64,000 bases of DNA from assembly GCA_046045965.1 (NCBI GenBank), contig JBJOKS010000022.1:1-64000 (forward strand). The letters are read 5' to 3'. Shown here in pieces: positions 8,719-46,931 of the stretch; position 1 is the first letter of the stretch; each line of letters opens with the position of its first letter. The notes below the pieces were generated by a model that worked only from the letters and a program-made list of their open reading frames with translations, did not search any database and was not told where the DNA came from. Source of the stretch: Cyanobacteriota bacterium (GTDB lineage: Bacteria; Cyanobacteriota; Cyanobacteriia; Cyanobacteriales; Nostocaceae). Position numbers and translations under genes: made by a program.

Positions 8719-8981
8719 TTTTATTTCCTCTGCTGACACATTCCCATCAAGGTAGCGTACATATTATCTAATAGATTTTAACTTTGGCTAATTTATTCTT
8801 TTGGTAGATGTCAAAAAATAAAAATAATGATAACCTGCAAAAGCTTGATTGAGAATCAAAATGTCAAATTAAAATACAGTAATTTCCGTAAAATCACTCA
8901 TATAAAAGCATCATATTAAGGTAAAATTAATCATGTACAAAAATTTCCACCATGATTAATGTTGCACAGAGGTAAACCACC

Positions 8982-10346
8982 TTGCTTTTTAACCCTGCAT
9001 TGTGTCGTAATGAAAGCGAAGTTGAGAGTAAACTCATAGTTCAATATTTGCTACCGCAGTTAGGGTATACTCCTGATACATGGCATCAGGAAGTAGCTGT
9101 TGGTAGCATTCGCTTAGATTTTTTAGCATTTTCAGCACAGTCCATTCCCTTTGTGTTAGATGCTGACTCACCGTTAAGTGTAGTGATGGAGGCAAAAAGC
9201 CCAAAGCAAAATTTAGACCATCATGTTTTACGACTACGGCATTATTTAACGAGTTTAAATGTGCGCTTTGGGTTGTTAACTAATGGTAAGGAAATCAGAG
9301 TTTATCAAAAGATAGGGAATGAAATTGAGTTAGTTTTTCGATGTGATGGGAATGATGTTGAAGGAAAGATTGAGGAAATTAGGGGGTTAATTGGTAGAGA
9401 AAGTTTGAAGAATAGGCAGTTAATTGATCGGTTAGAGGTTCAAGTTTCACAGTTAGAATCTAATAAGGAGCATTCTATGAAGACTATTGCAATTTATCAC
9501 AATAAGGGTGGAGTTGGTAAGACAACCGTTGCAGTAAATTTAGCAGCAGCATTGAGTAGCAAAGGTAAAAGAGTCTTATTAATTGATTTAGATTCTCAGG
9601 CTAATAGTACATTTGCGACAGGTTTGATCAAGTTCCAATTTGAGGAAGATGATAATTTACGAGATCAAAATGTTTCACACATATTAGAATCTGCTGATTT
9701 TAATTTCATACCGGAAATAATGCAACAATCTAATTATTTTAATAATCCAGAAATAGATGTTGTACCATCCCATATTAACCTTATTGATAAACAGGACAAA
9801 TTAAACCAAATAGCTGTAAGTAGAAGCAGATTAATTTCCAAACTCAAACCAATAGAAAATCAATATGATATCGTTATCATTGATACACCTCCATCAAGAG
9901 ATTATTACGCAGAAGTCGCTTTGATAGCTTCTGATTATCTACTCATACCTTCAGATTTAAAACCATTTGCTAATCAAGGTTTACCAACTGTGAAAAACTT
10001 TATTAAGCAAATAGATGAATATCGAGAAATGATTGGAAAACCTCCAATCAATATAATCGGTGTTGTTGCTTCTAAAATTTCAACTAATTCCAAGTTTTTG
10101 CAATACACATTTCCCAAACAAAGAAGCGTTATATCTGAACGGTATGATTTACCATTGATGGAAGCAGTGATTTATGATAGAAGTTCTCTATCAGAATGTA
10201 TGAATTATACCTTAACAGTTGGAGAGTTAGAATATCCTGATCCAAAATCAATTATTAAATTTGCACAAACAAAAACTAATGCTCAACAATCTGCACTAGA
10301 ATTTGAAATTTTAGCAGATGAAGTTTTACAAAAAATAGGAGGTTAA
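8982..10346 (+). CDS. HsdR-N-like (PD-(D/E)XK) nuclease domain fused to a ParA ATPase
   Basis: N-terminus ESEVE..LGY..RLDF..VMEAK..GLLTNG; C-terminus KGGVGKTT, IDLDSQAN, IDTPP. Confidence 0.8.
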   Translation: MLFNPALCRNESEVESKLIVQYLLPQLGYTPDTWHQEVAVGSIRLDFLAFSAQSIPFVLDADSPLSVVMEAKSPKQNLDHHVLRLRHYLTSLNVRFGLLTNGKEIRVYQKIGNEIELVFRCDGNDVEGKIEEIRGLIGRESLKNRQLIDRLEVQVSQLESNKEHSMKTIAIYHNKGGVGKTTVAVNLAAALSSKGKRVLLIDLDSQANSTFATGLIKFQFEEDDNLRDQNVSHILESADFNFIPEIMQQSNYFNNPEIDVVPSHINLIDKQDKLNQIAVSRSRLISKLKPIENQYDIVIIDTPPSRDYYAEVALIASDYLLIPSDLKPFANQGLPTVKNFIKQIDEYREMIGKPPINIIGVVASKISTNSKFLQYTFPKQRSVISERYDLPLMEAVIYDRSSLSECMNYTLTVGELEYPDPKSIIKFAQTKTNAQQSALEFEILADEVLQKIGG

Positions 10347-40520: not shown

Positions 40521-41951
40521 ATGACACTACAAAGCTTTGGTGTGATTGGATTAGCCGTTATGGGCGAGAATATCGCTCTCAACGTTGAGCGCAATGGCTT
40601 CCCAATTGCAGTTTACAACCGTTCTCGCGAGAAAACCGATGCCTTCATGGCGCAACGCGCTGGAGGACGGAATGTGGTTGCAGCCTTTACCTTAGAAGAA
40701 TTCGTTGCTGCACTAGAACGTCCCCGCAAAATTCTAGTGATGGTACAAGCTGGTAAGCCTGTTGATGCGGTAATTCAACAGCTTAAGCCTTTACTGCAAG
40801 AGGGTGACATCATTATTGATGGTGGTAACTCTTGGTTTGAAGATACCGAAAGACGGACTCAGGAATTAGAACCCACAGGTTTACGCTACATCGGTATGGG
40901 TGTGAGTGGTGGTGAAGAAGGTGCGCTGAATGGTCCTTCTTTGATGCCTGGTGGTACAAAAAGTTCCTATGAGTACCTATCCCCCATTTTCAACAAAATC
41001 GCTGCTCAAGTTGATGATGGTCCTTGTGTAACTTACATTGGTCCGGGTGGTTCTGGACACTATGTAAAAATGGTTCACAACGGCATTGAGTACGGCGATA
41101 TGCAGTTAATTGCAGAAGCCTACGATTTGCTGAAAAATGTCGGTGGTTTAAATGCTGCACAGCTACATGAAGTATTTGCTGAGTGGAATAAAACCGACGA
41201 ACTCAATTCATTTTTGATTGAGATTACAGCCAATATTTTCCCCTACGTTGACCCAGAAACTAAGAAACCCTTGGTTGATTTGATTGTTGACGCTGCGGGA
41301 CAAAAAGGCACCGGTCGTTGGACTGTACAAACTGCTTTGGAATTAGGCGTTGCTATTCCTACAATTACTGCTGCTGTTAATTCCCGGATTCTCTCTTCGA
41401 TTAGAGATGAACGGATTGCAGCATCTAAACAATTAACTGGTCCTGTTCCTGCTCAGTTTAAGGATACTAAGACTTTCGTGAACATGGTGCGTGATGCACT
41501 TTATTGTTCCAAAATCTGTTCTTATGCTCAAGGTATGGCGTTGATATCTACAGCTTCTACCACCTATAATTGGGGTCTAAATCTGGGTGAAATGGCTCGA
41601 ATTTGGAAGGGTGGTTGTATTATTCGCGCTGGTTTCTTGAACAAGATTAAGAAGGCGTTTGACGAAAATCCAGCATTACCTAACTTGTTGTTAGCACCTG
41701 AATTTAAGCAAACAATTCTGGATAGACAAGCTGCTTGGCGGGAAATAATTGTGACTGCTGCTAAGATGGGTATTCCTGTTCCAGCTTTTAGTGCTTCTCT
41801 TGATTATTTCGATAGCTACCGTCGGGAACGTTTACCTCAAAACTTGACTCAAGCACAACGCGACTATTTCGGCGCTCACACCTACAAACGTACTGATAAA
41901 GAAGGAACTTTCCACACTGAATGGGTTCCTATCGCTGAAGCTAAGAAGTAA
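40521..41951 (+). CDS. gndA: NADP-dependent 6-phosphogluconate dehydrogenase
   Basis: GLAVMG, KMVHNGIEY, GQKGTGRW, QAQRDYFGAHTY. Confidence 0.98.
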   Translation: MTLQSFGVIGLAVMGENIALNVERNGFPIAVYNRSREKTDAFMAQRAGGRNVVAAFTLEEFVAALERPRKILVMVQAGKPVDAVIQQLKPLLQEGDIIIDGGNSWFEDTERRTQELEPTGLRYIGMGVSGGEEGALNGPSLMPGGTKSSYEYLSPIFNKIAAQVDDGPCVTYIGPGGSGHYVKMVHNGIEYGDMQLIAEAYDLLKNVGGLNAAQLHEVFAEWNKTDELNSFLIEITANIFPYVDPETKKPLVDLIVDAAGQKGTGRWTVQTALELGVAIPTITAAVNSRILSSIRDERIAASKQLTGPVPAQFKDTKTFVNMVRDALYCSKICSYAQGMALISTASTTYNWGLNLGEMARIWKGGCIIRAGFLNKIKKAFDENPALPNLLLAPEFKQTILDRQAAWREIIVTAAKMGIPVPAFSASLDYFDSYRRERLPQNLTQAQRDYFGAHTYKRTDKEGTFHTEWVPIAEAKK

Positions 41952-42009
41952 ATTGCATCTGGTTAAGCTTTCAAGTTAGTTCTTGCTGTTTATTTTGGCA
42001 AAATTGCCT

Positions 42010-42033
42010 GTAGGGGCGGGGTTTACCCGCCCT
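42010..42033. repeat. GTAG-type REP-like palindrome
   Basis: gtaggggcggggtttacccgccct. Confidence 0.6.
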
Positions 42034-42050
42034 TAATTGTAAGATATTTA

Positions 42051-42080
42051 TTGAATTTAGCTCAAAAGCTATGCTATAAT
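42051..42080 (+). promoter_or_regulatory. Strong sigma70-type promoter with extended -10
   Basis: TTGAAT-N18-TATAAT with TGn before the -10; no credible ORF directly downstream. Confidence 0.65.
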
Positions 42081-42097
42081 TTTCAAAAAAATATCAT

Positions 42098-42379
42098 GCG
42101 GGGATAGCAGGTGTCTATGCTTTCCCAAAAGCTTCGTAATAAAGGTTCTTCTGGAAGTTTTCAATGGCTGTTCAACAGTGCAAGAGTTGTCCTCTTTCTT
42201 CGTGAACATTAAGGATAGTCTTATGATTGCACCTGTTATATACGTTATTGTCGGTTCATGCGGGGTAGCGTTGCTGCGGAGGTCTGGTGACTACCCAAAT
42301 GTACTGAAAGCAGTGCTGGAAGCTAAAAGAAATTCCTGTCGAAGAGTCAACGCTGGGGGTTCGATTCCTCCACCCCGCA
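42098..42379 (+). ncRNA. Unidentified structured RNA with a 3' tRNA-like domain (42260-42379)
   Basis: Acceptor stem GCGGGGT/ACCCCGC+A, T arm GGGGG-TTCGATT-CCTCC, helix AGCGTTG/CAACGCT; 5' domain closed by ATAGCAGGTG/CACCTGTTAT. Confidence 0.65.
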
Positions 42380-42587
42380 CTTTCCATAACATACCTGTAA
42401 AATAGAAGGTTGGGCTAACTAAAGTAAAACCAATAACCTTGCAAGAATGATTAAATACGTTAGAATAAGAGATGTATTGCGATATTTAACAATAGTGAAA
42501 TACATATATAAGGTAAAATAATTAAGCAACAATAGCAATAATATTGTCATTAAAAATCAAAAATGATCTCATAAACATAAAAAAGCT

Positions 42588-44039
42588 ATGTATATACGAA
42601 AAATTGAAATTAAAAATCTGTGGGGAAATGATTTTTTATGGACACTCAATGAAGATGTAAATGTTTTGATTGGCAAAAATGGTTCAGGAAAATCAACAAT
42701 ATTACGAATGCTTCATGAAGCAGTATTGCCTGTTGAAGATAGCAAATTAAACTTTAGGTTATTTGACCCCATTGATGAAATAATTATCGAGTTAGAAGAT
42801 GATATTGTCGTCAGAGTTAATAGTGAAAGTAGAAGTATAACGGCAAACAAAGAAATTACTAATTATAAACTGAATATAAACTTTATTAATACTTTTGATG
42901 TCGTTGAAAACGGGTTAAGCTCAGATACCACATTACTTGACTACCAACTTAATAAATTAAAATACGAGTTTGTTACTTATCAAAGAGATTTATCTAATCA
43001 AGTAGAGGAAGAATTTAAAATTAATTTTAAAACAAATAATATTAATGATCAAGCATCAAGAAAAAATCAATTAGATAAAATTGAATCTATCTATGAAACT
43101 AAAAATAAATTCATTAAGATATTAAATCAACTATTTTCTGAGACAGAAAAGAAATTTGATGAAAAGGAATTTCATTTTTTAAAAGAAGGCATACAAACAC
43201 CCATATTACCAGAGGATTTATCATCTGGAGAAAAACAGATATTGATTATTTTATTAACAACATTACTTCAAGATGCCAAAGATTATATATTGTTAATGGA
43301 TGAACCAGAAATATCCGTGCATATTGATTGGCAAAGGAGTTTAATAGCAAATATAAGAGAGATAAATCCAAATTGTCAAATTATTCTTACCACTCATTCA
43401 CCGACTGTTTGGTATCAAGGTTGGATTGAAGAAGTTACGCACATAGAAGATATTCAGTCAACTTCAGATTTAGTAACAGAAAGTACAATTCTCAAAGAAA
43501 AAACTGATCAATTAGGAGAGCGTGTAGAAGAAATAAAAGATATTTTTAGTGGCTTTTCAGGCAACAATTTACGTAAACTTTATCAATTTAATCGCAAAAT
43601 TAATGAATATACTTTATTTACAAAAGATGAATGCCTTCAATTGTTGAAATTTCTAAAAGAAAACAAGATTTATCCTGATGTCATCACATTTACTACTCTT
43701 ATTTCCAAACTCACTAATTATCAAGATGCTAAAGATATTTTCGATTTAATGGAAGCAGAAACTTATAGTAAATCATCTCATGTCAAGCCTAATGATATAA
43801 CTCTTAATACTTTGATCAAAAAAGTCAGTGGAGTTGAAGAAGGTATTGAACTTATTCAAAACATAAATGAAAACATGGAATTGCGTCCTGATATTATCAC
43901 TTTTAGCACGTTGCTTGGGAAAGCAAGAAATATGGATGAGATTACATTTCTTGAAGATGCACGAACTTACTATGGAATTAAAGCAAATAATATATACTTA
44001 AATAAATTAGCTTTTAAGGGGTTTCAGGGAGGACGATAA
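42588..44039 (+). CDS. ABC/AAA_21 ATPase (PARIS AriA-like) with C-terminal PPR-like repeats
   Basis: GKNGSGKS, LSSGE, LLMDEPE, TTHSP; repeats PDVITFTTLI, PNDITLNTLI, PDIITFSTLL. Confidence 0.85.
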   Translation: MYIRKIEIKNLWGNDFLWTLNEDVNVLIGKNGSGKSTILRMLHEAVLPVEDSKLNFRLFDPIDEIIIELEDDIVVRVNSESRSITANKEITNYKLNINFINTFDVVENGLSSDTTLLDYQLNKLKYEFVTYQRDLSNQVEEEFKINFKTNNINDQASRKNQLDKIESIYETKNKFIKILNQLFSETEKKFDEKEFHFLKEGIQTPILPEDLSSGEKQILIILLTTLLQDAKDYILLMDEPEISVHIDWQRSLIANIREINPNCQIILTTHSPTVWYQGWIEEVTHIEDIQSTSDLVTESTILKEKTDQLGERVEEIKDIFSGFSGNNLRKLYQFNRKINEYTLFTKDECLQLLKFLKENKIYPDVITFTTLISKLTNYQDAKDIFDLMEAETYSKSSHVKPNDITLNTLIKKVSGVEEGIELIQNINENMELRPDIITFSTLLGKARNMDEITFLEDARTYYGIKANNIYLNKLAFKGFQGGR

Positions 44040-44042
44040 GTA

Positions 44043-45044
44043 ATGAATTTGTATGAAGTAGCTGCCCAAAGAATGCAAGAAGAAGCTCGCTAAAAAAGGT
44101 GTGAAATTTCTGTATTGGTTGAAGATGTTTATGATGAAGAATTTTGGAGACTTATTATTGAAAATGTTAAACCGAATTTAAGAAATAAAATTTATTTCCC
44201 ATATCCCAGTAAGAAAGGAACACGCGGAAAAGATACTTTAAAAAAGTTTAGAGAGTTCGTTAATAAAAAATTTATTATTTGTATTGATAGTGATTGCGAA
44301 TACTTGTACGATAATAATGTTTGGTATATCGCTGACTATATTTACCATACAGTTGTTTATAGTAAAGAAAACTTTCAGTGTAATCATTTTTCATTAAATG
44401 AAATATGCAAAAGTTTAACCACAGAAAACTATGATTTTAGCAGTTTACTTGAAAATATTTCCCGAAGAGTTTCTCCTCTATTTTACGTTTGGTTCTACTT
44501 TAAAGAAATCAACTACAATAATGTTGAGCATCTTATAAATAATGAAGCATTTGCAAGAATTTTAAATTTTCAAGATAGTCAATTCGACAATATTGGAGAT
44601 GAAAATATCTTATTTCAAAATATTGAAGATAGAGTGAAAAATATATTACAAAATCTAAAAAATGTCATGGACAATGATAGTTGGTATGAATCAATATTTA
44701 CAATTGATATTCCTAATATACAAAATCGGTTAATAGAACAATACTCAATACATCCAGAAGATATTTTATCATTTTGCTGTGGACATGGTGTATTAGACCA
44801 ATTTGTTGAACCTTTTATGAGAAAACTCATTACAATATTAAAGAATTTAAAAATAGAAGAAGTAAAACAGGCTTTAAGTGAAGACAAAAATATTGATAAC
44901 ACAATTAGTCGTATCGAAAATATTGCCAGACGAGACATTAAGACTATGTTAAACACCAGTTTAATATATCTCCTTCTTTATAATGCTGTCGAAAATCAAC
45001 AGATGCAAGAAATTAAAGACAAACTAGCTAGAGAACTGAACTAG
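44043..45044 (+). pseudogene. DUF4435/TOPRIM nuclease (PARIS AriB-like) interrupted by an in-frame TAA at 44091
   Basis: ATG 44043 after GGAGG, in frame with ORF 44115; VLVED..D, IDSD, YSKEN motifs. Confidence 0.72.
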
Positions 45045-45257
45045 TGCGATCGTAAAGCGCATCTGCAAGCAGATCGCCCTTAGTTAATGGAAATACGTTA
45101 AGATAAGGGATGTAGTGCGGTGTTTAATAATAGTAAAATATGACAAATCAAGAGTTTTTAAAAGTAGGAATCTTAAAAATGTATCAAAAGGTGGAGATAA
45201 AGTGAAAAGATTCTATCTTTAATTGGATATAGCTTCTGTCTTTAGGGACATTAAACA

Positions 45258-45512
45258 ATGCTGAAAAAGATTAATTCTATAATCTCCAAAAATACTGAAA
45301 TTTTTCAAAAAATAACAGATGAACAAGCAGCTTTTATTAGTGGTGGTATGGAGATACCTGTAGCTCCTGATATACCTTCTATACCTTATGATGTTGGTGA
45401 GCTAACACCTCAAATTCCTAATCTTCCTAATCTTCCGGTTGATCTGCTTAATTCTGTTCCTACTACTTTTCCACTTGATATGAGTTCTTTTGGAGTTCCC
45501 GTAACTGTTTAA
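45258..45512 (+). CDS. Small protein with a double-glycine-type leader and Pro-rich core
   Basis: FQKITDEQAAFISGG followed by a Pro/acidic core; has its own terminator. Confidence 0.7.
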   Translation: MLKKINSIISKNTEIFQKITDEQAAFISGGMEIPVAPDIPSIPYDVGELTPQIPNLPNLPVDLLNSVPTTFPLDMSSFGVPVTV

Positions 45513-45561
45513 ATTTTGCTCCAGCATTAATTTTAGCAACTTACAAAATTTTCAAAAAAGT

Positions 45562-45592
45562 AAACCATCTCACTTGTGTTGATGGTTTTTTT
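45562..45592 (+). terminator. Intrinsic terminator
   Basis: aaaccatc-loop-gatggttt plus T run. Confidence 0.6.
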
Positions 45593-45782
45593 ACTTGGCT
45601 TTTTTTACTTGGTAGTTTTTAGTTTTTGTAGGTTGGGTTAAGCAATAGCGTTTAGTTGTAACCTGCATAAATTTTTCCTGATAAATACACTAGCTATCAG
45701 CATTCAGAAGTAAGCTTTTTAACGGTTAAGCTAAAAACTTTATAAAGAAAAGCATTTCTGATACAAACCAGAATAAAAATAA

Positions 45783-46931
45783 TCAACCATTCCCCAAAAA
45801 CTTAGCCTTCATCTCCTCCAATTCTTTATCTACAGCATCGTTATTATTAGGATTATTAGTAGAAACAGAAGATTGTGGTGTCACATTTTGCGGTTGCACC
45901 TTACCACCAGTAAACTGTGTTTTTAATTCCAATAATTCCTTCTCAAGTTGACTAGGAGTTTGAGGAACAACAGCAGGTGGAGAAATAGGAGATTTTTGTT
46001 TAACAGGTTGATTAATAATTGTGGGTGGGATAACTGCGGGAGATTGAATATTTAAATTATTATTTAAATCTTTAAGAACTGCATCAGTTGTTTGATAACG
46101 CTGACTAGGGATAGTTTCTACCATTTTGTCAATAATATTACCCAATTCCTTACTAACCGGACTTTTCAAATATTGTCGCCATACCCAAGCAGCGTTATGG
46201 GTATCATAACTATCAAAAGGCGATCGCACTGTTAACAAATTAATACAAGTTACCCCTAAACTATAAATATCACTGGCAAAAATTGCCCTTCCTCGCATTT
46301 GTTCTGGTGCAACATATTCAGGACTACCAATACTCGTACCTGTGCGATTTAAAGCCTCACCTGCGGTAGATTTTGCCGCTCCAAAATCAACAATTACTAG
46401 TTTATGATCACTACCCCGACGAATAATATTTTCTGGTTTAATATCTCGATGAATTACTTGTTTACCATGACAAAATTGCAACACAGGTAATAAATCATTT
46501 AATAATTGTCGAATCTGAATTTCATTAAAAGCACCTCTATTTGCTAATTCCTGAGCCAAATTTAGCCCATCAATAAATTCTTGGACTAAATACTGTCTGT
46601 CATCTTGAGTACAATAAGCCAACAGTGCGGGAATTTGCGGATGTTGTCCCAAATCATCCAACTGTACTGCTTCCTGGTTAAATAACTCTATCGCTTTTTG
46701 TACCGTATTTGTACCTTGAGCTTGGGGAAAAAATTGCTTAATTACACAGGTAGGTTTTGAGGGTTTATCCTCATCCACCGCTAAAAAAGTTCTCCCAAAA
46801 CCACCTTGTCCAATGGGTTTAATAGCGCGGTAACGTTCTTTTAACAGTAACTTAGTACCGCAAGTTAGACAAAACTTGACATCATCAGGGTTTTCCGGTT
46901 TAGAACAATGGGGGTTAAGACAGTAACTCAT
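45783..46931 (-). CDS. Cytoplasmic Ser/Thr protein kinase with 4-Cys N-terminus
   Basis: YCLNPHC..FC..CG, IGQGGFG, HRDIKPEN, DFG, APEQ. Confidence 0.95.
   Translation of the reverse strand: MSYCLNPHCSKPENPDDVKFCLTCGTKLLLKERYRAIKPIGQGGFGRTFLAVDEDKPSKPTCVIKQFFPQAQGTNTVQKAIELFNQEAVQLDDLGQHPQIPALLAYCTQDDRQYLVQEFIDGLNLAQELANRGAFNEIQIRQLLNDLLPVLQFCHGKQVIHRDIKPENIIRRGSDHKLVIVDFGAAKSTAGEALNRTGTSIGSPEYVAPEQMRGRAIFASDIYSLGVTCINLLTVRSPFDSYDTHNAAWVWRQYLKSPVSKELGNIIDKMVETIPSQRYQTTDAVLKDLNNNLNIQSPAVIPPTIINQPVKQKSPISPPAVVPQTPSQLEKELLELKTQFTGGKVQPQNVTPQSSVSTNNPNNNDAVDKELEEMKAKFLGNG

What the first reader, a model, noticed from the sequence alone, without database searches (positions are those of the whole stretch)
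42260..42379. 120-nt tRNA mimic with acceptor stem and T arm but no D or anticodon arm
Seen: a 7-bp acceptor stem (42260-66/42372-78) with discriminator A and no encoded CCA; a T arm GGGGG-UUCGAUU-CCUCC; a third helix AGCGUUG/CAACGCU joined with no linker, enclosing about 74 nt that include GUACUG-AAAG-CAGUGC. It has no G3-U70 pair or recognisable tag ORF (so not tmRNA) and no 7-nt anticodon loop on a stem. Inference: an RNase P/RNase Z-processed tRNA-like RNA of unknown family.
Basis: partly seen in the sequence, partly recalled or inferred. Interest (0 to 1): 0.72.

Follow-up and report, generated by a model that had tools for sequence, protein, structure and literature searches.

The report
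Cyanobacterial RNA with tRNA-like end
The tRNA look-alike is real, but it is only the 3' end of a larger, well-expressed RNA of about 273 bases that occurs sporadically in filamentous cyanobacteria, also carries a tiny hydrophobic reading frame, and matches no described RNA family.

Summary
Bases 42260-42379 (+) fold into a 7-bp acceptor stem, a 9-bp third helix and a canonical T arm. ARAGORN and Rfam find nothing. Relatives show compensatory changes.

The element is not a stand-alone 120-nt RNA. It is the 3' module of a conserved unit with its own promoter (42051-42080). Metatranscriptome contigs cover about 42106-42378, starting at 42105/6 in three runs.

The unit has three further features:
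- A 5' domain zippers onto the interior of the tRNA-like module.
- An SD+AUG (42211-42225) sits in a hairpin.
- A small hydrophobic ORF runs into the acceptor strand; it is present in 27 of 27 members and is 16-73 aa long.

The nearest true tRNA is tRNA-Gly(UCC). The family is a sporadic, single-copy accessory cassette: 8 strong and 3 divergent hits in 151 Cyanobacteriia genomes. It often lies among defence genes, here PARIS, but has no constant neighbour.

My best reading (about 0.4) is a self-silenced, type-I-toxin-like or dual-function small mRNA whose tRNA-Gly-derived cap sets and protects its 3' end. A purely non-coding tRNA mimic is nearly as likely. RNase P/Z cleavage, CCA addition, translation and toxicity are all untested. 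Five literature searches found no earlier description.

The parts
42051..42080 (+). Promoter-like site: TTGAAT, 18 nt spacer, TATAAT with TG before the -10 box
   Evidence: scores it 10 of 12. A TAnAAT box is aligned in 14 of the 18 full-length A4-set rows present in the alignment (my count; L055 is not in that alignment). In same-genus genomes that lack the unit, similarity to G000 ends just before it.
42106..42379 (+). The expressed RNA, about 273 nt (whole unit)
   Evidence: The X1 contig is 100% identical, has depth 700 and covers 42105-42377, with adapter-like loose letters directly before 42105. Contigs of relatives in X3 and X4 start at 42106. The X2 contig covers 42163-42385 at depth 70.7, then depth falls to 3.5 downstream. 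Conservation stops at 42379.
42106..42121 (+). 5'-terminal hairpin (AGC.../...GCU)
   Evidence: helix 1 has 5 of 6 pairs with changes on both sides.
42132..42182 (+). 5' domain: the 5' strands of four long-range helices (42132-36, 42143-45, 42156-62, 42171-82)
   Evidence: They pair with 42340-44, 42335-37, 42318-24 and 42300-10. At column pair 47/288 the counts are GC 14, CG 5 and 0 unpaired. The 5'-domain/interior duplex is more stable than nearly all shuffles in 20 of 22 members (at most 9 of 200 shuffles as stable).
42207..42225 (+). Hairpin CAUUAAG/CUUAUG that occludes part of the SD (AAGGA 42211-15) and the AUG (42223-25)
   Evidence: 6 pairs, invariant in 19 of 19 rows. Six of those rows were retrieved with a pattern covering this site, so for them the invariance is by construction.
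42223..42405 (+). Small ORF, 60 aa here (MIAPVIYVIVGSCGVALLRRSG...). The conserved core is the first 16-22 codons. The stop codon lies 26 nt beyond the mature 3' end.
   Evidence: an SD+ATG ORF entering the acceptor strand is present in 27 of 27 members. The mean Kyte-Doolittle hydropathy of the first 20 residues is 0.68-1.93. No Pfam or NCBIfam family matches. Related proteins are 13 clusters that are either unannotated or named only 'hypothetical protein'.
42228..42258 (+). Hairpin inside the ORF (codons 2-12)
   Evidence: helix 7 is 95.8% paired. Column pair 170/180 reads GC 10, AU 7. Column pair 172/178 reads CG 14, AU 2.
42260..42379 (+). tRNA-like module: acceptor 42260-66/42372-78; helix 3 42267-75/42345-54; hairpin H4 42278-95; T arm 42355-71; discriminator A42379
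   Evidence: In 10 of 10 cases checked, the only true tRNA that the model picks up is tRNA-Gly(UCC).

Best explanation
This is a stand-alone accessory gene for a highly structured RNA of about 273 nt. The RNA is at once a small mRNA and a tRNA mimic.

Shown:
- It has its own promoter and a discrete transcript covering about 42106-42378.
- The 3' module is an acceptor stem, a T arm and helix 3, and its closest tRNA relative is tRNA-Gly(UCC).
- A 5' domain base-pairs along the interior of that module.
- The SD and AUG lie in a hairpin.
- A hydrophobic ORF starts 36-49 nt upstream of the acceptor stem and reads through its 5' strand and the 5' strand of helix 3.

Inferred:
- With no terminator present, the acceptor/T-arm minihelix is taken by the cell's tRNA 3'-end machinery. 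This sets the 3' end and shields it from exonucleases, as t-elements do.
- The long-range rod and the SD/AUG hairpin hold the message in a stable, translationally closed state, as in type I toxin mRNAs such as hok or aapA1.
- Ribosomes that do enter must melt the acceptor stem and helix 3. Translation and the tRNA-like fold therefore exclude each other.
- RNase P, if it cuts at 42259/60, would sever the ORF after codon 12.
- The product would be a membrane-active peptide of about 20-30 aa. The cassette would behave as a selfish or stress/defence-island module.
For: Transcript:
-. 22 runs on record as RNA libraries (the 24 runs listed come from 15 studies) hold part of it. Four runs were laid.
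- Contigs begin at 42105/6 in 3 of the 4 laid runs and end at 42377-85 in 2 of the 4.
- Depth is 700 against 36-85 over the gnd 3' end in X1. The tool warns that contig depth cannot rank genes.
- No terminator is found.

Structure:
- A 57-pair model, with the acceptor stem written as a pseudoknot, is 95.1% paired against 42-50% when partners are slid.
- 16 pairs change on both sides against 5-9 when slid, and 0 of 500 shuffles reach the observed values.
- Helix 3 has compensatory changes at positions 10, 14 and 15.
- The long-range duplex beats nearly all shuffles in 20 of 22 members (at most 9 of 200 shuffles as stable). This includes 3 divergent members whose sequences differ.

ORF:
- An SD+ATG ORF is present in 27 of 27 members, including the divergent L079-L081, which have a different N-terminus and SD context, and L075, which has an unrelated 5' domain.
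- The N-terminal stretch is hydrophobic and is followed by LR(R/S).

Accessory nature:
- There is one copy per genome.
- BLAST finds it in 4 of 61 relatives. Full length occurs in 8 of 401 genomes of the order. The model finds 8 strong and 3 divergent hits in 151 genomes of the class.
- Two same-genus genomes carry other cargo at the same site.
- G170 holds a truncated relic.
- No recurrent neighbour is seen, but defence genes are often nearby.
Against: - There is no codon-position bias in codons 2-13. Variable sites number 8, 10 and 8 at positions 1, 2 and 3 (my count on the alignments).
- Much of that variation is explained by a covarying RNA hairpin.
- ORF length varies from 16 to 73 aa through frameshifts and early stops. 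In 8 of 27 members the stop lies beyond the mature 3' end, which would make the message non-stop.
- No antisense antitoxin RNA or conserved minus-strand promoter was found (contigs give no strand).
- The peptide belongs to no known family. Toxicity and translation are untested.
- Contigs cannot show whether a processed 120-nt species also exists.
- Part of the invariance around the SD/AUG and around the acceptor stem comes from the search patterns used.
Confidence: 0.4

Rival explanations
1. It is a purely non-coding structured RNA and the ORF is incidental. The particle of about 273 nt displays a tRNA-Gly-like acceptor/T-arm cap on a long rod. It acts through tRNA-binding proteins such as RNase P, the CCA-adding enzyme, EF-Tu or modification enzymes. 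Alternatively it serves as a decoy or sensor for tRNA-targeting nucleases in defence islands.
For: - Covariation covers the whole RNA, including the 'coding' stretch.
- There is no codon-position signature and the stop position varies.
- Contig depth is high in RNA libraries, as for stable non-coding RNAs.
- Defence genes are frequent neighbours: PARIS, Septu, an AbiL-like ATPase and PD-T4-6-like kinases.
Against: - A strong SD at 5-8 nt from an AUG, plus an open hydrophobic frame, is kept in 27 of 27 members. This holds even in subfamilies whose sequence there is unrelated.
- No protein partner recurs beside it.
- G277 keeps the RNA at the same locus without PARIS.
Confidence: 0.33
2. It is a tmRNA-like, ribosome-directed device. 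RNase P cleavage at 42259/60 would give two pieces held together by the rod. One is a tRNA-like piece. The other carries SD, AUG and 12 codons with no stop. Together they would act in ribosome stalling or rescue.
For: - The RNA has both tRNA-like and mRNA-like parts.
- The rod would keep the two pieces together: duplex energies run from -34 to -60 kcal/mol in the 20 members where the duplex is supported.
- The cut would leave a non-stop mini-message.
- G1-C72, C2-G71 and G3-C70 match what I recall as GlyRS acceptor determinants.
Against: - No tag frame lies inside the loop.
- G3-U70 is present in only 2 of 17 distinct members.
- The discriminator is A in most members, not U.
- RF00023 and ARAGORN -m give no match.
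- A normal tmRNA exists in the genome.
- The contig spans the proposed cut site.
Confidence: 0.07
3. It is a decaying tRNA-Gly pseudogene, or the leftover attachment site of an integrated island.
For: - tRNA-Gly(UCC) is the closest tRNA.
- Conservation stops exactly at the 3' end.
- G170 holds only the 3' 88 nt beside a Septu system.
Against: - Compensatory changes and conservation span at least 7 families of the class.
- It has its own conserved promoter and is well expressed.
- No integrase was seen among the ORFs scanned. The 25-base T-arm/3' acceptor end is not repeated anywhere in the 64-kb window.
- The whole unit, not a fragment, is what recurs.
Confidence: 0.03
4. It is a cis-regulatory leader of the downstream gene (AriA here).
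For: - The next gene is on the same strand and begins 22-432 nt after the 3' end of the RNA unit in 7 of 10 loci.
- X2 shows low read-through downstream.
Against: - The downstream genes are unrelated to one another: AriA, Uma2, DUF29, XisH, an AraC-family regulator and others.
- Conservation ends at 42379.
- Depth drops about 20-fold after the unit in X2.
Confidence: 0.04

Closest known systems
tmRNA (SsrA; Rfam RF00023)
   Same: One RNA combines a tRNA-like acceptor/T-arm domain that lacks a D arm and an anticodon arm, a long helix in place of the anticodon stem, pseudoknot-type long-range pairing, and a short reading frame.
   Different: - The acceptor stem is formed inside the 3' 120 nt, not by the two RNA ends.
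- The ORF has its own SD and AUG. It lies upstream of the tRNA-like domain and overlaps its 5' strand.
- There is no G3-U70 in 15 of 17 distinct members and no alanine-rich tag.
- RF00023 and ARAGORN give no match.
- The genome has a true tmRNA at C1:141829-142219.
t-elements of plant mitochondria, and the mascRNA-type tRNA-like 3' modules of MALAT1. For Forner et al. 2007 (PMC1920247) I read the abstract only. The MALAT1 comparison is recalled.
   Same: A tRNA-like fold with an acceptor stem and T arm but no working anticodon arm sits at the end of a longer transcript, exactly where the RNA end maps. No terminator is present.
   Different: - This one is bacterial and chromosomal.
- The mimic is overlapped by the coding frame, and its interior pairs with the 5' UTR.
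- Cleavage by RNase Z or RNase P has not been shown here.
Type I toxin mRNAs (hok, aapA1, tisB and others; recalled) and the candidate Microcystis msoT1/msoA1 system (PMC12390103; abstract and outline read)
   Same: - A sporadic, single-copy accessory cassette.
- A stable, highly folded message of about 250-300 nt.
- Long-range pairing between the 5' domain and the 3' part of the RNA, with the SD and AUG occluded.
- A small hydrophobic peptide followed by basic residues.
   Different: - No antisense RNA antitoxin was found.
- ORF length is not conserved.
- No type I toxin known to me ends in a tRNA mimic.
tRNA-Gly(UCC)
   Same: - The first five acceptor pairs (GCGGG/CCCGC) match.
- The T loop UUCGAUU matches, and in many genomes so does the T stem GGGGG/CCCCC.
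- A CCAAG stretch aligns with the 3' side of the anticodon loop.
- It is the only tRNA that model R1 retrieves, in 10 of 10 cases checked.
   Different: - There is no D arm and no anticodon stem-loop.
- About 65 nt are inserted.
- The discriminator is A, not U, in most members.
- The score is 30-35 bits against 94-135 bits for family members.
Dual-function RNAs such as RNAIII/hld and SgrS/SgrT (recalled; the review PMC12612679 was seen only in the search listing)
   Same: An abundant structured RNA that also encodes a very small peptide.
   Different: No base-pairing target is known here, and none of those RNAs carries a tRNA-like domain.

Membership tests
Canonical tRNA | Cloverleaf with a D arm and an anticodon stem bearing a 7-nt loop | tested here: not met
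   ARAGORN at default finds 0 genes. With introns allowed it still finds none. Only at 70-80% thresholds does it give a forced tRNA-Leu with a 49-nt intron and a 3-bp D stem. Position 8 is A, not U.
Canonical tRNA | 7-bp acceptor stem stacked on a 5-bp T stem with a UUCRAnn loop | tested here: met
   The acceptor stem is paired in 97.7% of cells and the T stem in 100%.
tmRNA | G3-U70 alanine identity pair | tested here: not met
   Position 3-70 is G-C in 15 of 17 distinct members and G-U in only two, the Scytonema copies G009 (Scytonema sp. HK-05) and L055.
tmRNA | Match to the family model, and a tag ORF inside the loop closed by the long helix | tested here: not met
   RF00023 does not match at E<=10. 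ARAGORN -m finds none. The interior frames are broken by 1-nt indels between relatives. A true tmRNA lies elsewhere in the genome.
t-element / tRNA-like 3' processing signal | The transcript end coincides with the edge of the tRNA-like fold | tested here: met
   Contigs end at 42377 (X1) and 42385 (X2, followed by a 20-fold drop in depth). The acceptor stem ends at 42378/9. No terminator is found. Contig ends are weak evidence for RNA ends.
t-element / tRNA-like 3' processing signal | Cleavage by RNase Z and/or RNase P | not testable with these tools
   This needs enzyme assays or end-mapping of raw reads.
Type I toxin-antitoxin | Small hydrophobic ORF with an SD on a folded mRNA that has long-range inhibitory pairing | tested here: met
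Type I toxin-antitoxin | Antisense or adjacent small RNA antitoxin | tested here: inconclusive
   The scan finds no minus-strand promoter-like site inside the ORF or the tRNA-like module. The only minus-strand sites lie at the unit's 5' edge or upstream of it (42117-42088 and 42065-36). Contigs carry no strand information.
Type I toxin-antitoxin | The peptide is toxic when expressed | not testable with these tools
   Not tested.
Any Rfam 15 family (including YrlA/Y RNA and other tRNA-like RNAs) | Score at or above the gathering threshold | tested here: not met
   The only hit overlapping the element is on the minus strand, at 14.2 bits against a gathering score of 65.7.

The most novel reading that the evidence does not exclude
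The tRNA mimic may be the built-in antidote of a toxin message. When the acceptor/T-arm fold forms, RNase P would cut at 42259/60, after codon 12 of the ORF. That would leave a harmless non-stop stub still tethered by the rod to a free tRNA-Gly-like RNA. When tRNA processing is overloaded or blocked, for example by phage infection in a defence island, intact message would accumulate, open up and be translated into a membrane peptide. This would be a toxin system whose 'antitoxin' is the cell's own tRNA-processing machinery. It would also yield a natural two-piece assembly of a tRNA-like RNA and a mini-mRNA.
Probability: 0.12. Interest if true: 0.9.

Novelty: new variant of a known kind. Interest (0 to 1): 0.68.

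Why it matters
Bacterial RNAs that are both tRNA-like and mRNA-like have so far meant tmRNA. This is a second, unrelated design. It is a tRNA-Gly-derived cap fused to a small-ORF message, and the coding frame runs through the acceptor strand, so translation and tRNA mimicry cannot coexist on one molecule.

The RNA is expressed in natural freshwater communities and is conserved with covariation across several cyanobacterial families. It is absent from Rfam and from the papers I could search.

Several things would follow if the readings hold:
- It would give cyanobacteria a well-defined candidate for a type-I-like toxin or a dual-function RNA.
- It would be a bacterial counterpart of t-elements and viral 3' tRNA-like structures.
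- It would be a handle for asking how tRNA-processing enzymes are used outside tRNA biogenesis.

If it proves to be only a stable non-coding RNA, it is still a new structured RNA family with a testable pseudoknot architecture.

Tried and rejected
- **tmRNA or a second ssrA.** Rejected.
- **tRNA with an intron.** Only forced ARAGORN calls appear at lowered thresholds.
- **Island attachment site.** The 25-base 3' end (T arm plus 3' acceptor strand) is not repeated in the window, and no integrase was seen among the ORFs scanned.
- **Functional link to PARIS.** G277 has the RNA, 98% identical and at the same locus, without PARIS, and other loci have other neighbours.
- **Acceptor pairing by the upstream copy GCGGGGA (42098-104).** The pairing is not conserved in G002, G049 and G009 (my reading), and that stretch lies outside the RNA contigs.
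- **Local inner hairpins of the MFE fold.** They are paired in only about 69.5% of cells in relatives.
- **Phage or plasmid origin.** There were 0 hits in viral contigs, in plasmids and in phages.
- **Peptide family.** Pfam, NCBIfam and a protein search gave nothing named.
- **Earlier findings of this scan.** Nothing was found on this genome or sequence.
- **Literature.** Five searches and passages of PMC6202907 and PMC12873609 gave no description of this RNA. Supplements were not opened.
- It failed because I gave a wrong frame. It was redone with correct coordinates.

Full report
**1. The observation**

- The acceptor stem is 7 bp: GCGGGGU (42260-66) with ACCCCGC (42372-78).
- The discriminator is A42379 and the next bases are CTT, so no CCA is encoded.
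- The T arm is GGGGG-UUCGAUU-CCUCC (42355-71).
- A third helix follows the acceptor stem without a linker.

The minimum-energy fold reproduces this structure at -45.9 kcal/mol (z = -2.68; 1 of 200 shuffles folds as well). It lengthens the third helix to 9 pairs with one bulged U.

The standard detectors find nothing:
- ARAGORN finds no tRNA or tmRNA in the 64-kb window.
- With introns allowed and thresholds lowered to 70-80%, it gives only a forced tRNA-Leu with a 49-nt intron and an overlapping opposite-strand call.
- Rfam 15 has no match at gathering score in the window.
- At E<=10 in 41900-42700, Rfam has no + strand match on the element.

**2. The conserved unit is larger**

BLAST against relatives found the stretch in 4 of 61 genomes. 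In a sample of 401 genomes of the order, 23 had some match.
- 8 matches were near full length: G000, G277, G002, G049, G218, G183, G250 and G407.
- One, G170, covered only the 3' 88 nt.
- The rest were under 40 nt.

Alignments show that conservation begins about 200 nt upstream, at a promoter-like TTGAAT-18-TATAAT (42051-80). It ends exactly at the discriminator.

Two pattern scans added more copies:
- A pattern on the acceptor region found 11 genome contigs. They include Sphaerospermopsis, two Anabaena, two Scytonema, Cylindrospermum, Microcoleus, Myxacorys, a Leptolyngbyaceae MAG and Coleofasciculus.
- A pattern on the SD/start region found 13 metagenome contigs. All 13 carry the tRNA-like module downstream.

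The first pattern found nothing in viral contigs. BLAST found nothing in plasmid or phage records.

**3. It is transcribed as one RNA**

22 runs on record as RNA libraries hold part of the stretch (the 24 runs listed come from 15 studies). Four were laid.
- In X1, a 294-base contig at depth 700 is identical to 42105-42377. Twenty-one loose letters directly before 42105 look to me like a sequencing adapter. That identification is recalled, not tested.
- Contigs of relatives in X3 and X4 start at 42106.
- In X2, a contig covers 42163-42385 at depth 70.7, and the next contig downstream has depth 3.5.
- Nothing covers 41970-42071 in any of the four runs, although the end of gnd is covered.

Contigs give neither strand nor true ends, and contig depth cannot rank genes. 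What they do show is one piece spanning the 5' domain, the ORF and the tRNA-like module, with the same left edge in three studies and a right edge at the acceptor end. No intrinsic terminator follows.

**4. Structure**

RNAalifold on 19 full-length rows (A4) predicts these elements:
- a 5'-terminal hairpin;
- four helices joining the 5' domain (42132-82) to the interior of the tRNA-like module (42300-44);
- a hairpin, CAUUAAG/CUUAUG, that buries part of the SD and the AUG;
- a hairpin inside the ORF;
- the T arm.

I added the acceptor stem as a pseudoknot and counted pairs.
- 57 pairs are 95.1% paired, against 42-50% when partners are slid.
- 16 pairs change on both sides, against 5-9 when slid.
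- 0 of 500 shuffles reach the observed values.
- The pair C/G at columns 47/288 switches to G/C in 5 rows with no exception. Those 5 rows are one clade.

MAFFT misaligns the 3' strand of helix 3, so I scored that helix by script on 17 distinct sequences. Both-side changes occur at position 10 (U-A in 2), position 14 (A-U in 3) and position 15 (U-A in 2). That script picks the linker and bulge that maximise pairing, which favours the helix.

Other structural results:
- The acceptor stem varies only by wobble changes, at five positions, plus three mismatched cells.
- An alternative helix that would sequester the 5' acceptor strand is 95.8% paired, but with one-sided changes only.

Helix 3 abuts the first long-range helix on a continuous strand (42340-54). 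The rod and the tRNA-like junction could therefore coexist as a pseudoknot, or they could be two states of a switch. I cannot tell which.

A duplex calculation supports the rod in 20 of 22 members, where at most 9 of 200 mononucleotide shuffles are as stable, and none is in 12. The two exceptions, L060 and L075, have a different 5' domain.

**5. Wider family and origin**

A covariance model of the module (R1) was run on 151 genomes of the class.
- It scored 94-135 bits in 8 genomes, including G000.
- It scored 37-45 bits on elements of 121-126 nt in 3 further genomes.
- It scored 30-35 bits on 71-nt hits in about 30 genomes.

All 10 of the 71-nt hits that I checked are tRNA-Gly(UCC). The tRNA shares these features with the module:
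- acceptor pairs 1-5;
- the T loop;
- often the T stem;
- a CCAAG stretch aligned to the 3' side of its anticodon loop.

The three divergent members keep helix 3 with further compensatory changes, a T arm and a weaker acceptor stem. Their 5' domains are unrelated in sequence, yet they again pair with the module interior. In L080 this pairing is 17 nt long.

**6. The ORF**

An AUG with an SD lies 36-49 nt upstream of the acceptor stem. It opens a frame that reads through the 5' strands of the acceptor stem and helix 3 in 27 of 27 members. This includes the divergent members and L075.

In favour of coding:
- The first 16-22 residues are hydrophobic (MIAPVVYTTVGSCGVALLRRSG in the main group) and are followed by basic residues.
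- A 31-aa form recurs in the main group.

Against coding:
- Variable sites in codons 2-13 fall 8, 10 and 8 at codon positions 1, 2 and 3 (my count).
- Much of that variation is covariation in the ORF hairpin.
- Length ranges from 16 to 73 aa.
- In 8 of 27 members, this window among them (stop at 42403-05), the stop lies beyond the mature 3' end.

No protein family matches. The 13 related protein clusters are either unannotated or named only 'hypothetical protein'.

**7. Context**

- Upstream lies gnd (6PGD) with its hairpin.
- Downstream in G000 and G002 lie a PARIS pair (AriA 42588-44039, AriB 44115-45044) and a PD-T4-6-like kinase.
- G277 has the RNA at the same site, 98% identical, followed instead by a Uma2 gene.
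- Same-genus genomes G001 and G003 carry unrelated DNA after the gnd hairpin.
- Other loci have other neighbours, often with PADLOC hits, and none recurs.
- G170 holds only the 3' part, beside Septu.

The unit is therefore an autonomous accessory cassette in variable, defence-rich regions.

**8. Reading**

I commit to a self-silenced small message with a tRNA-Gly-derived 3' cap that sets and protects its end. It would work like a type I toxin mRNA or a dual-function RNA (0.4). A purely non-coding tRNA mimic is close behind (0.33). A tmRNA-like device, a pseudogene or attachment-site relic, and a leader of the downstream gene are unlikely.

Shown here are the fold, its conservation, the transcript, the ORF's presence and the tRNA-Gly affinity. 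Inferred are processing by RNase Z or RNase P, stabilisation, translational silencing, and peptide function.

Five literature searches and the passages read gave no earlier description.

Noticed in passing
window 42588-46931: There is a PARIS pair here: AriA at 42588-44039 (E 6e-52) and AriB/DUF4435 at 44115-45044. A PD-T4-6-like Ser/Thr kinase lies on the minus strand at 45783-46931. The AriA C-terminus (aa 347-412) gives weak PPR-repeat hits, seen also in G002. That is unusual for a bacterial ATPase. PPR repeats are RNA binders, as I recall.
   Followed up: partly
window 42040-42450, compared with L091 and L092: The site just after the gnd hairpin is a swap point. G001 and G003, of the same genus, carry unrelated DNA there. 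G003 regains similarity to G000 only at about 42449-42500.
   Followed up: partly
window 42098-42105: The 8 bases before the RNA's 5' end (GCGGGGAU) nearly repeat the 5' acceptor strand and could pair with the 3' acceptor strand. They lie outside the RNA contigs. They are either a GC-rich discriminator after a second -10-like box (TATCAT, 42092-97) or a removed leader.
   Followed up: partly
L021/L046 (G170:C8, about 8943-9029): This is a truncated copy holding only the 3' 88 nt of the unit. It has no ORF and no 5' acceptor strand. It lies next to XisH and a Septu PtuA/PtuB pair.
   Followed up: partly
L078 (G518:C1:255041-255158 and upstream): One base is missing in the acceptor strand and one extra base lies 20 nt later. 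The downstream frame (DYPDVLGAV, then stop) is therefore restored after a scrambled stretch. This could be chance, or a hint that the 31-aa frame matters.
   Followed up: no
L004 (G009 = Scytonema sp. HK-05) and L055 (Scytonema sp. NIES-4073): These two copies alone have G3-U70 in the acceptor stem and a C discriminator. G009 also has an in-frame 6-nt duplication just after the AUG.
   Followed up: no
window 45258-45512: An 84-aa ORF between AriB and the kinase has no Pfam or PADLOC match.
   Followed up: no
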